A stretch of DNA of 64,000 nt from the human T2T-CHM13v2.0 reference genome, Homo sapiens, in contig CP086569.2 in NCBI GenBank assembly GCA_009914755.4, positions 13,312,001 through 13,376,000 on the forward strand, in the 5' to 3' direction. Both the position numbers and the translations under genes were made by a program. Shown here piece after piece: positions 48,202 to 50,135 of the stretch. Below the pieces are notes generated by a model. It had not been told where the DNA came from. It searched no databases and was given only the letters and a program-made list of their open reading frames with translations. Position 1 is the first letter of the stretch; every line of letters starts with the position of its first letter.

Positions 48202-50135
48202 TTTTTGTTTGTTTGTTTGTTTTAGTATTTATTGATCATTCTTGGGTGTTTCTCAGAGAGGGGAATGTGACAGGGTCATAGGATAATAGTGGAGGGAAGG
48301 TCAGCAGACAAACATGTGAACAAGGGTCTCTGGTTTTCCTAGGCAGAGGACCCTGCGGCCTTCCGCAGTATTTGTGTCCCTGGGTACTTGAGATTAGGGA
48401 GTGGTGATGACTCTTCACGAGCATGCTGCCTTCAAGCATCTGTTTAACAAAGGACATCTTGCACCACCCTTAATCCATTTAACCCTGAGTGGACACAGCA
48501 CATGTTTCAGAGAGCACAGGGTTGGGGGTAAGGTTATAGATTAACAGCATCCCAAGGCAGAAGAATTTTTCTTAGTACAGAACAAAATGGAGTCTCTCAT
48601 GTCTACTTCTTTCTACACAGACACAGTAACAATCTGATTTCTCTTTCTTTTCCCCACATTTCCCCCTTTTCTTTTCGACAAAACCGCCACGTCATCATGG
48701 CCCATTCTCCCTGGTCGCTGTCTCTTCGGAGCTGTTGAGTACACCTCCCAGATGGGGCGGCCGGGCAGAGGCACTCCTCACTTCCCAGACGGGACGGCCG
48801 GGCAGAGGCGTTCCTCACTTCCCAGACAGGGCGGCCAGGCAGAGGTGCTCCTCACTTCCCAGATGATGGGCAGCAGGGCAGAGGCGCTCCCCACTTCCCA
48901 GATGGGGTGACGGCCGGGCAGAGGCGCTCCTCACCTCCCAGACAGGGCGGCCAGGCAGAGGTGCTCCTCACATCCCAGACGCGGTGGCGGCCGGGCAGAG
49001 GCGCTCCTCACTTCCCAGAAGGGGCGGCCAGGCAGAGGCGCTCCTCACATCCCAGACGCGGTGGCAGCCGGGCAGAGGTGCTCCTCACCTCCCAGACGGG
49101 GTGGCCGGGCGGAGGCGCTCCTCAAATCCCAGACGGGGTGGCTGGGCGGAGGGTCTCCTCACTTCCCAGATGACGTGGCGGCCAGGCAGAGGCACTCTTC
49201 ACCTCCCAGACGGGGCAGCCAGGCAGAGGCACTCCTCACTTCCCAGACAGGGCAGCCGGGCAGAGGCACTCCTCACTTCCCAGACGGGGTGGCGGCCGGG
49301 CAGAGGCACTCCTCACCTCCCAGACGCGGTGGTGGCTGGGCAGAGGTGCTCCTCACCTCCCAGATGGGGCGGCTGGGCAGAGGCGCTCCTCACATCCCAG
49401 ATGATGGGCAGCCAGGCAGAGGCGATCCTCACCTCCAAGACCGGGTGGCCAGGCAGAGGCGCTCCTCACCTCCCAGCCAGGGTGGCCGGGCAGAGGCTCT
49501 CCTCACTTCCCAGACGGGGTGGCCGGGCAGAGGCGCTCCTCACTTCCTAGATGGGGTGGCAGCCAGGCAGAGGTGCTCCTCACTTCCCAGATGGGGCGAC
49601 CGGGCAGAGGGGCTCCTCACATCCTGGACCATGGGCGGCCAGGCAGAAATGCTGCTCACTTCCTAGACGGGGTGGCGGGCGGGCAGGGGCTGTAATCTTA
49701 GCACTTTGGGAGGCCAAGGCAGGCGGCTGGGAGGTGGAGGTTGTAGTGAGCCGAGATCACGCCACTGCACTCCAGCCTGGGCAACACTGAGCACTGACTG
49801 AGCAAGACTCCGTCTGCAATCTCAGCACCTCGAGAGGCCGAGGCAGGCAGATCACCCAAGGCCAGGAGCTGGAGACCAGCCTGGTCAACATGGCGAAACC
49901 CCGTCTCCATCAAAAATACAAAAACCAGTCAGGAGTGGCGGCGCGTGCCTGGAATCCCAGGCACTGGGCAGGCCGAGGCAGGAGAATCACGGGAGCCCAA
50001 GGCAGGGAGGTTGCAGCGAGCTGAGATCATGGCAGTACAGTCCAGGCTGGGCAAGAGAGGGAGACCGTAGAAAGAAGAGGGAGAGGGAGACAGAAGGAGG
50101 GGGAGGGGGAGGGGAAGAGGGAGAGGGAGAGGGGC
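48202..50135 (-). mobile_element. Full-length SVA retrotransposon (minus strand). Left to right on the plus strand: poly-T/(GTTT)n tail, SINE-R (48224-48720), VNTR (48720-49685, ~25 x ~38 bp), Alu-like region (49685-50046), (AGAGGG)n hexamer end (50047-50134)
   Basis: SINE-R antisense: agtatttattgatcattcttgggtgtttctcagagagggg...cctaggcagaggaccctgcggccttccgcagtatttgtgtccctgggtacttgagattagggagtggtgatgactcttcacgagcatgctgccttcaagcatctgtttaacaaaggacatcttgcaccaccc...; VNTR unit ggcggccgggcagaggc(a/g)ctcctcacttcccagacgg; Alu-like gggctgtaatcttagcactttgggaggccaaggcaggcggctgggaggtggaggttgtagtgagccgagatcacgccactgcactccagcctgggcaacactgagcactga...; hexamers gagagggagaccgtagaaagaagagggagagggagacagaaggagggggagggggaggggaagagggagagggagagggg. 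TSD aygtattagtttt at 48193-48205 and 50136-50148. Confidence 0.9.

What the first reader, a model, noticed from the sequence alone, without database searches (positions are those of the whole stretch)
48202..50135. Intact full-length SVA (minus strand) with ~25-unit VNTR and a readable 13-bp target-site duplication
All SVA modules are present in canonical order when read on the minus strand: (CCCTCT)n hexamers, Alu-like region, VNTR (~945 bp of ~38-bp GC-rich units), SINE-R and an A-rich tail. Flanking TSD is aygtattagtttt (48193-48205 and 50136-50148). SVAs are hominid-specific, the youngest active human retrotransposon family, frequently insertion-polymorphic, and their VNTR is length-polymorphic and can act as a methylation-sensitive enhancer or provide splice sites. 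The Arg/Gly/Pro-rich ORFs at 48907..49790 derive entirely from the VNTR.
Basis: partly seen in the sequence, partly recalled or inferred. Interest (0 to 1): 0.55.

Follow-up and report, generated by a model that had tools for sequence, protein, structure and literature searches.

The report
Old full-length SVA_A retrotransposon copy
This is a structurally complete but old copy of the ape-specific SVA jumping element, from its oldest subfamily (SVA_A), inserted by the LINE-1 machinery; it is an ordinary, already-known kind of repeat rather than a young or active one.

Summary
A full-length SVA lies on the minus strand at 48206-50135. It has a CT-rich hexamer region, an antisense Alu-like region, a 25-unit VNTR (48735-49689), SINE-R, AATAAA and a short degenerate A-rich tail. 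It is flanked by a 13-bp target-site duplication (12/13 identical; the mismatch is a CpG transition) at a perfect L1 endonuclease site, TTTT/AA.

The implied significance (young, active, often polymorphic) does not fit this copy. It belongs to SVA_A, the oldest subfamily:
- It keeps the 16-bp HERV-K env segment that later subfamilies deleted.
- It has the SVA_A state at 18 of 26 diagnostic SINE-R sites.
- It retains an 11-bp Alu segment that the 10 other sampled copies covering that region lack.
- Its VNTR has only ancestral 37/39/40-bp A/B/C units behind the conserved ABCA start, with none of the G-rich units of SVA_B to SVA_F.

It differs from the published SVA_A SINE-R consensus by about 4%, its CpGs are decayed, and its hexamers and tail are degenerate. 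This suggests an insertion roughly 10-20 Myr ago, so it is probably fixed. Presence in other hominids and VNTR length variation could not be tested with these tools. This is an ordinary known repeat of low interest.

The parts
50136..50148 (-). 5' copy of the target-site duplication, AAAACTAATACAT. It is preceded by TT (50149-50150), so the + strand of the empty site reads TTTT/AA.
   Evidence: only two matches in the window, 0 expected by chance.
50053..50135 (-). CT-rich (CCCTCT)n-like 5' domain, degenerate. The first base, G (50135), could be a cap-derived extra G; this is inference only.
   Evidence: TRF finds period 6, 10 copies, 79% matches at 50076-50133. Alignment to 10 other SVA 5' ends.
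49690..50052 (-). Alu-like region made of Alu fragments antisense to the SVA. It retains an 11-bp Alu-derived segment, TTGGGCTCCCG, that is lost in the other sampled copies.
   Evidence: blastn against a real Alu at 50300-50600 matches in the same window strand. Sub-threshold Metazoa_SRP hit at 49802-49909 (+). Alignment A4.
48735..49689 (-). VNTR of 25 units: A B C A C C C B C A A C C ? C C A C A C A B C C T. Units are 37, 39 or 40 bp only. CpG observed/expected is 0.45.
   Evidence: Unit types and SVA_A schemata from PMC4432496 supplements.
48659..48734 (-). SINE-R, env-derived part. It includes the SVA_A-diagnostic 16-bp segment CCGAAGAGACAGCGAC (48714-48729) and the polypurine tract AAAAGAAAAGGGGG.
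   Evidence: Published SVA_A consensus. The 16-bp deletion is used as a marker in PMC5640379.
48222..48658 (-). SINE-R, HERV-K LTR-derived part. It forms two blocks homologous to the LTR in this window, joined at 48330-48332 across a 364-bp deletion, and ends at AATAAATACTAA.
   Evidence: blastn gives 94.5% over 329 bp and 92.8% over 111 bp against the LTR at 58491-59458.
48228..48233 (-). Polyadenylation signal AATAAA, inherited from the HERV-K LTR.
48206..48221 (-). Short degenerate A-rich tail, AACAAACAAACAAACA. Its boundary with the TSD is ambiguous by up to 4 A's.
   Evidence: TRF reports (TTTG)n at 48204-48222.
48193..48205 (-). 3' copy of the target-site duplication, AAAACTAATACGT. It differs from the 5' copy by one G/A change at a CpG.

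Best explanation
This is a full-length SVA composite retrotransposon of the oldest subfamily, SVA_A, carrying a few states of the next subfamily.

Inferred mechanism (from the anatomy and the literature, not shown here): an SVA RNA, polyadenylated at the HERV-K-LTR-derived AATAAA, was copied into the genome in trans by LINE-1 proteins. The L1 endonuclease nicked the window's + strand at TTTT/AA, and the T-run primed reverse transcription on the poly(A) tail. A second nick 13 bp away produced the 13-bp duplication.

The insertion is old, on the order of 10-20 Myr. Since then the copy has decayed by CpG deamination, point mutation, hexamer degeneration and tail shortening. It is most likely an immobile, fixed repeat. 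Any present-day activity, such as being a KZFP/TRIM28 target, a CpG-rich regulatory element or a source of cryptic splice sites, is only what is known for the family in general and was not tested here.
For: SVA identity:
- All modules are present in order.
- SINE-R matches the HERV-K LTR in the same window in two blocks (94.5% over 329 bp, 92.8% over 111 bp) with a 364-bp internal deletion, and stops at the LTR's AATAAATACTAA.
- The Alu-like part is antisense Alu.

L1-mediated insertion:
- The 13-bp TSD is unique in the window, with 0 expected by chance.
- The target site is TTTT/AA, with an AATAAA signal and an A-rich tail. These are the hallmarks listed by Raiz et al. (PMC3287187).

SVA_A assignment:
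- It retains the 16-bp env segment, shared only with L047 and L016/L010 among 49 sampled SVA copies. The segment is present in the published SVA_A consensus (PMC4432496 supplement), and its deletion marks younger subfamilies (PMC5640379).
- After removing machine-reading artefacts, 18 of 26 sites that separate SVA_A from the young consensus carry the SVA_A state. These include GAAAAG, TTAATCTATAACC, ATTATCC and CACAT.
- The VNTR is ABCA followed only by A/B/C units, 25 units in all, with no G-rich E-L motifs. Other loci have 1-12 such motifs. This matches the ten published SVA_A schemata and not the SVA_B to SVA_F ones.
- An 11-bp ancestral Alu segment is retained.

Age:
- About 20 substitutions plus a 1-bp deletion over ~503 bp against the SVA_A consensus, 5 of them CpG transitions.
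- 15 CpGs in the 5' region against 29 in the consensus of other copies.
- CpG observed/expected of 0.29-0.45 across modules.
- The single TSD mismatch is at a CpG.
Against: - Three sites (48491, 48350, 48295) and possibly three more (48639, 48598, 48324) carry the state of later subfamilies, so the copy is not a pure match to the SVA_A consensus. It may descend from a late or transitional SVA_A source.
- The published consensus was available only as machine-read text with dropped letters, so exact counts are approximate.
- No RepeatMasker/Dfam classification could be run.
- The species of the window is unknown.
- No orthologous or population data were available, so 'fixed' and 'inactive' are inferences from age, not observations.
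Confidence: 0.88

Rival explanations
1. A young, potentially retrotransposition-competent and insertion-polymorphic SVA (subfamily D, E or F).
For: It is structurally full length with a readable TSD. The SVA family as a whole is active in humans (PMC10681720).
Against: - It retains the 16-bp env segment that D-F lack.
- It has 7.1% substitutions against the young-group consensus, compared with 3.7-4.1% against the old groups.
- It has no F/K/G/C' VNTR units.
- Its CpGs are decayed, its hexamers degenerate and its tail only 16 nt and interrupted.
- Long-read polymorphic insertions were D/E/F types only.
Confidence: 0.02
2. An SVA_B/SVA_C copy, or a copy from an A-to-B transitional lineage, rather than SVA_A proper.
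For: - The states GTCCACTC, GGGTCC and CTTCCCTCC are shared with the env-minus 'old' group.
- Overall substitution distance is slightly lower to that group's consensus (3.7%) than to the two env+ copies (4.1%).
- PMC10681720 notes that the A/B boundary is unsettled.
Against: - The 16-bp env segment, GAAAAG, ATTATCC and CACAT are SVA_A states absent from the env-minus group.
- The VNTR lacks the fixed B'CAACA array and the E/G/H/I units of SVA_B/C, and with 25 units it is longer than the 10-19 units in the published B/C schemata.
- The 11-bp Alu segment is absent from the env-minus copies.
Confidence: 0.08
3. A lineage-specific orangutan SVA (SVA_PA_2 to SVA_PA_12), if the window is from Pongo. 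In that case it could be much younger and species-specific.
For: The species of the window is unknown. Orangutan SVAs derive from SVA_A and keep the env segment (PMC4432496).
Against: - There is no 43-bp Q-type or 38-bp R-type unit in the VNTR; all units are 37, 39 or 40 bp.
- Divergence and CpG decay indicate an old copy.
- SVA_PA_1 is identical to SVA_A anyway.
- The machine-read dots in the supplement prevented a site-by-site test against SVA_PA_2 to 12.
Confidence: 0.02

Closest known systems
SVA_A, the oldest subfamily of hominid SINE-R/VNTR/Alu retrotransposons (Wang et al. 2005; Repbase/Dfam SVA_A)
   Same: Same module order. It shares the 16-bp env segment, GAAAAG, TTAATCTATAACC, a CACGTG-derived CACATG, ATTATCC, CACAT and the AATAAATACTAA end. 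The VNTR has the ABCA start followed only by A/B/C units ending in T. At 1.93 kb it falls within the 1.6-2.8 kb range of the ten published SVA_A examples.
   Different: It is about 4% diverged from the consensus. Three to six sites carry the state of later subfamilies. There is a private 1-bp deletion (48690) and a private TC>GG change (48710-48711). No D or X units are present.
SVA_B/SVA_C, represented here by the 'old env-minus' sampled copies such as L032, L036 and L046
   Same: Most of SINE-R is shared, including GATGCTGTTAATCTATAACC, CACATG and AATAAATACTAA. Overall distance is 3.7%.
   Different: Those copies lack the 16-bp env segment and the 11-bp Alu segment. They have GAATAG, GTCC and CAAAT, and they carry G-rich E/G/H/I units in a fixed ABCA-B'CAACA array.
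HERV-K (HML-2) LTR5, represented by the solo LTR in this same window at 58491-59458
   Same: It is the parent of the SINE-R module, 93-95% identical over 440 bp, and provides the same polyadenylation signal.
   Different: The LTR is 968 bp, contains the 364 bp that SINE-R has deleted, continues past the poly(A) site into U5, and has no VNTR, Alu-like or hexamer modules.
Active human SVA_E/SVA_F source elements such as H19_27 and H10_1 (Raiz et al. 2012)
   Same: Same architecture, and the same L1-dependent insertion hallmarks: TTTT/AA, a TSD of 8-19 bp and a poly(A) tail.
   Different: Those elements have K/G/C' VNTR arrays, intact CpGs, clean hexamers and 30-78-nt poly(A) tails on new insertions, and they lack the 16-bp env segment.

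Membership tests
SVA composite retrotransposon | 5' (CCCTCT)n hexamer repeat | tested here: met
   TRF finds period 6, 10 copies, 79% matches at 50076-50133. It is degenerate but aligns to the hexamer region of 10 other SVAs.
SVA composite retrotransposon | Alu-like region made of antisense Alu fragments | tested here: met
   blastn against a window Alu gives 75-84% identity in the same window strand, which is antisense to the SVA. SRP sub-threshold hit at 49802-49909 (+). Alignment A4.
SVA composite retrotransposon | GC-rich VNTR of roughly 35-50-bp units | tested here: met
   25 units of 37-40 bp, 69% GC.
SVA composite retrotransposon | SINE-R: the HERV-K env 3' end plus an LTR with an internal deletion, ending at the LTR poly(A) signal | tested here: met
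   Two-block match to the in-window LTR with a 364-bp deletion. The env part matches the published SVA_A consensus.
SVA composite retrotransposon | L1-type insertion hallmarks: TSD, TTTT/AA target site and an A-rich tail | tested here: met
   13-bp TSD with 12/13 identical, 0 expected by chance. The flanking TT gives TTTT/AA. The tail is 16 nt and interrupted. Hallmarks as listed in PMC3287187.
SVA_A subfamily | Retention of the 16-bp HERV-K env segment that younger subfamilies deleted | tested here: met
   CCGAAGAGACAGCGAC lies at 48714-48729. It is shared by only 3 of the sampled loci, is in the SVA_A consensus, and its deletion is used as a marker in PMC5640379.
SVA_A subfamily | SINE-R diagnostic substitutions of the SVA_A consensus | tested here: inconclusive
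   18 of 26 cleaned diagnostic sites have the A state, 6 have the later state and 2 are other (one of these is CpG decay of the A state). The criterion is mostly met, but the consensus was machine-read and the copy looks late or transitional.
SVA_A subfamily | VNTR with the ABC(A) 5' array, only A/B/C/D/X units, and no E-L units | tested here: met
   The units read A B C A C C C B C A A C C ? C C A C A C A B C C T, with 0 G-rich motifs against 1-12 in other loci. Compared with the published schemata.
SVA_A subfamily | Age and phylogenetic distribution: insertion shared among great apes | not testable with these tools
   No hominid genomes are available. No exact ORF is in the protein collection, no gene handle was found, and none of the 49 contaminant loci is this locus. 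Divergence of about 4% is compatible with the published ~13.6 Myr.
Young active SVA (D/E/F) | 16-bp env deletion, derived SINE-R states, and F/K/G/C' VNTR arrays | tested here: not met

The most novel reading that the evidence does not exclude
This copy mixes SVA_A hallmarks (16-bp env segment, ATTATCC, CACAT, 11-bp Alu segment, A/B/C-only VNTR) with three to six states otherwise seen only in later subfamilies. It could therefore descend from, or lie close to, the transitional source lineage that led from SVA_A to SVA_B. Alternatively, despite its age, it could still be a length-polymorphic, methylation-sensitive regulatory VNTR at its locus.
Probability: 0.07. Interest if true: 0.3.

Novelty: already known. 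Interest (0 to 1): 0.06.

Why it matters
It matters little beyond correct annotation. SVA_A copies make up roughly a fifth of the ~5,000 reference SVAs (PMC10681720), and any RepeatMasker track would label this one. The useful outcome is negative: this element should not be prioritised as a candidate polymorphic or active insertion. The window also holds both a HERV-K LTR and an SVA_A, which gives a compact illustration of how SINE-R was derived from the LTR (364-bp deletion, shared poly(A) signal).

Tried and rejected
- Global MAFFT of SINE-R against the LTR mis-placed the second block because of the 364-bp deletion. It was replaced by blastn.
- The viral-contig scan for the SINE-R deletion junction found 0 hits.
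- None of the 49 contaminant SVA loci from metagenomes or genomes is this locus; there was no unique-flank match.
- Exact look-up of 10 ORF products from the element and its flanks found none in the collection. This closed the route to the same locus in other assemblies. A homology search with VNTR ORFs was judged not worth its cost, because it would return mainly other SVA copies.
- Gene hunt: 300 stop-free segments of at least 50 aa outside multi-copy repeats, plus the GC-rich block, were scanned against Pfam. The only result was one NPR2 hit at E = 0.0011, which is chance level, so no gene was available to fetch orthologous loci. Rfam at gathering thresholds found nothing in the window.
- Wang 2005 and Hancks & Kazazian 2010 are not held, and a literal sequence search of papers found nothing.
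- MAFFT including the machine-read SVA_A consensus inflated the distance to 7.1% through misalignment around dropped letters. The pairwise alignment, hand-corrected for 4 artefacts, was used instead.
- VNTR lengths in short-read metagenome contigs were not used as a length reference, because such arrays are likely collapsed.

Full report
**Observation.** Read on the minus strand, window 50148..48193 contains the following in order:
- AAAACTAATACAT, the 5' TSD copy (50148-50136).
- A G followed by a CT-rich, degenerate (CCCTCT)n stretch (50135-50053).
- An Alu-like region (50052-49690).
- A GC-rich tandem array (49689-48735).
- A SINE-R module (48734-48222) ending in AATAAATACTAA.
- A 16-nt interrupted A-rich tail (48221-48206).
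- AAAACTAATACGT, the 3' TSD copy (48205-48193).

Tandem Repeats Finder reports the hexamer array (50076-50133, 10 copies, 79% matches) and the VNTR (48742-49680, period 37, 24.7 copies, 80% matches). The pattern AAAACTAATACRT occurs exactly twice in the 64 kb, at the two junctions, with none expected in 100 shuffles. The only adjustments are that the element proper starts at 48206 rather than 48202, and that one of the four 'VNTR ORFs' (49551..49790) extends about 100 bp into the Alu-like region. These ORFs are antisense to the element and none exists as an exact entry in the protein collection. They are by-products of a GC-rich repeat.

**Testing the modules.** The window contains a 968-bp HERV-K (HML-2) LTR at 58491-59458, also on the minus strand. 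That LTR is the parent sequence of SINE-R, so the SINE-R claim can be tested inside the window.
- blastn aligns SVA 48658-48330 to LTR 59458-59130 (94.5% of 329 bp) and SVA 48332-48222 to LTR 58765-58655 (92.8% of 111 bp).
- SINE-R is therefore the LTR minus an internal 364 bp. It stops at the LTR's AATAAATACTAA, the polyadenylation signal and site, whereas the LTR itself continues into U5.
- The 76 bp upstream of the LTR start (48734-48659) include a polypurine tract and match the env-derived start of the published SVA SINE-R consensus.
- The Alu-like region matches a genuine Alu of the window in the same window strand, so it is antisense within the SVA, as in all SVAs. It also gives a weak SRP-model hit on the + strand.

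**Insertion mechanism.**
- The 5' TSD copy is preceded by TT, so the + strand of the reconstructed empty site reads ...ACGTATTAGTTTT/AACC... This is the L1 endonuclease consensus TTTT/AA, with the T-run abutting the complement of the A-rich tail.
- Together with the 13-bp TSD, the AATAAA and the tail, these are the hallmarks of L1-mediated target-primed reverse transcription listed by Raiz et al. (PMC3287187).
- The TSD abuts the hexamers and the tail directly, so there is no 5' or 3' transduction.
- The steps of the mechanism are inferred from this anatomy and from established knowledge. They are not shown here.

**Which SVA.** A scan of public collections for the SINE-R-specific deletion junction returned 46 metagenome contigs and 3 bacterial-assembly contigs carrying SVA copies, which is host contamination. 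The viral collection returned none. None of the 49 is this locus. They serve as a sample of the family.

SINE-R sites:
- In the SINE-R alignment this copy retains a 16-bp segment, CCGAAGAGACAGCGAC (48714-48729). Only L047 and L016/L010 share it; all others have it deleted.
- The SVA_PA_1 consensus in the supplement of Lupan et al. 2015, which the authors state is identical to human SVA_A, contains this segment (PMC4432496).
- Levy et al. 2017 use 'the 16-bp deletion' relative to HERVK to separate SVA_A from younger subfamilies (PMC5640379).
- After removing positions that are machine-reading artefacts of the supplement, 26 sites separate the SVA_A consensus from the consensus of the 13 youngest sampled copies. 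This element has the SVA_A state at 18, the later state at 6 and another base at 2, one of which is CpG decay of the SVA_A state.
- Two SVA_A states (A at 48284 in ATTATCC, C at 48267 in CACAT) are shared with the LTR and, among the sample, only with fragment L011.

Alu-like region:
- The copy keeps an 11-bp segment, TTGGGCTCCCG, that aligns to real Alu sequence. All 10 other copies that cover this region lack it.

VNTR:
- Lupan et al. report that SVA_A VNTRs start with ABCA and contain only A (40 bp), B (39 bp), C (37 bp), occasional D and rare X units. E/G/H/I units appear in SVA_B/C behind a fixed ABCA-B'CAACA array, and F/K/G/C' units appear in SVA_D to SVA_F.
- This VNTR reads A B C A C C C B C A A C C ? 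C C A C A C A B C C T: 25 units, all 37, 39 or 40 bp.
- It has no G-rich later-type motif, whereas most other sampled loci with VNTR sequence have 1-12 such motifs.

Four independent kinds of evidence therefore point to SVA_A: the SINE-R indel, the SINE-R substitutions, the Alu-like indel and the VNTR composition. The three to six later-type states (48491, 48350, 48295, and possibly 48639, 48598, 48324) suggest a late or transitional SVA_A source.

**Age.**
- Against the SVA_A SINE-R consensus there are about 20 substitutions and one 1-bp deletion in ~503 bp (about 4%). Five are CpG transitions, out of 15 CpG dinucleotides in the consensus.
- About nine non-CpG changes are private to this copy (about 1.9%). 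At the commonly used neutral rate of roughly 0.15% per Myr for non-CpG sites (my own knowledge, not a tool result), this gives on the order of 13 Myr. The plausible range is 10-20 Myr.
- The published SVA_A origin is 13.56 Myr (Wang 2005, as cited in PMC3606032).
- The 5' region has 15 CpGs against 29 in the consensus of other copies.
- CpG observed/expected is 0.29-0.45 across modules.
- VNTR units are only 80% alike, the hexamers are degenerate, and the tail has become (AAAC)n.
- The single TSD mismatch is a CG-to-CA change.

The identity is right, but the reasons for interest apply to SVA_E/F and some SVA_D, not to SVA_A. In the 20-genome long-read survey of Chu et al., the fully assembled polymorphic insertions were 26 D, 125 E, 145 F, 18 F1 and 39 CH10_SVA_F, with no A to C (PMC10681720). 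SVA_A makes up about 23% of 5,107 reference copies, and 38% of reference copies are full length. A full-length SVA_A is therefore common. I infer that this copy is fixed and immobile. I could not test this because no hominid genome or population resource is available here.

**What could not be done.**
- I tried to obtain the same locus elsewhere through exact protein look-ups.
- I also tried to find a host gene by scanning 300 stop-free segments against Pfam and by Rfam. Nothing usable emerged.
- The species, the chromosomal position, and whether the element is intronic therefore remain unknown.

**Verdict.** This is an ordinary, already-known kind of repeat: a structurally complete but old SVA_A insertion. 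Interest is low.

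Noticed in passing
window 58491-59458 (-): A 968-bp HERV-K (HML-2) LTR5-type solo LTR (TGTGGGGAAAAG...CCACCCCTTCA), the parent sequence of SINE-R. The flanking hexamers GAGTCT and GCCTTT are not a clean TSD. The LTR appears to sit inside an older LTR-like repeat, because its two flanks read through as one sequence.
   Followed up: partly
L047 (NRRR01000079.1, Chromatium weissei), L048 (BMTN01000097.1, Streptomyces kurssanovii), L049 (BNBB01000110.1, Streptosporangium violaceochromogenes); also L001-L046: Hominid SVA SINE-R sequence is present as 525-578-bp contigs in three bacterial genome assemblies and in 46 metagenome contigs. 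This is host or laboratory DNA contamination in public records.
   Followed up: partly
L016:8405-8919 and L010:3687-4141: Two contigs share the same 5' flank and a 5'-truncated, env-segment-positive SVA. They differ inside SINE-R: L010 carries LTR5-like states and an 8-bp gap. This suggests a chimeric assembly or a divergent allele.
   Followed up: no
L011:1-181: An SVA 3' fragment with even more LTR-like states than this element (CACGTG, CTTCTCTCC, GGGACC, ATTATCC, CACAT). It matches the SVA_A consensus most closely at the SINE-R 3' end.
   Followed up: partly
window 15950-17450: A GC-rich block with long overlapping ORFs on both strands (up to 289 aa, Pro/Arg/Gly-rich) and no Pfam match. It looks like a CpG island, possibly a promoter or first exon, but no gene could be identified.
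   Followed up: partly
window 50165-50590 (+) and 50870-51413 (-): An Alu cluster starts 16 bp from the SVA 5' TSD. The first block looks like an extra left-monomer-like unit followed by a full Alu (TRF period 135, 2.2 copies). There are sub-threshold hits to Alu-derived miRNA families (mir-1268, mir-3135, mir-1285).
   Followed up: no
window 41373-42001; 11778-12190; 4285-4963; 39000-40200: Other tandem or low-complexity repeats: 234 bp x 2.7 (89% matches), 81 bp x 5.1, a TATC/CATC-rich microsatellite block, and a TG/CA-rich stretch that gives Cys/His/Val-rich pseudo-ORFs.
   Followed up: no
window 47600-47960 (+): The sequence just beyond the SVA 3' flank looks like the 3' end of an older L1 followed by an A-rich run. 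This is from reading the sequence and from memory of L1 3' ends; it was not tested.
   Followed up: no
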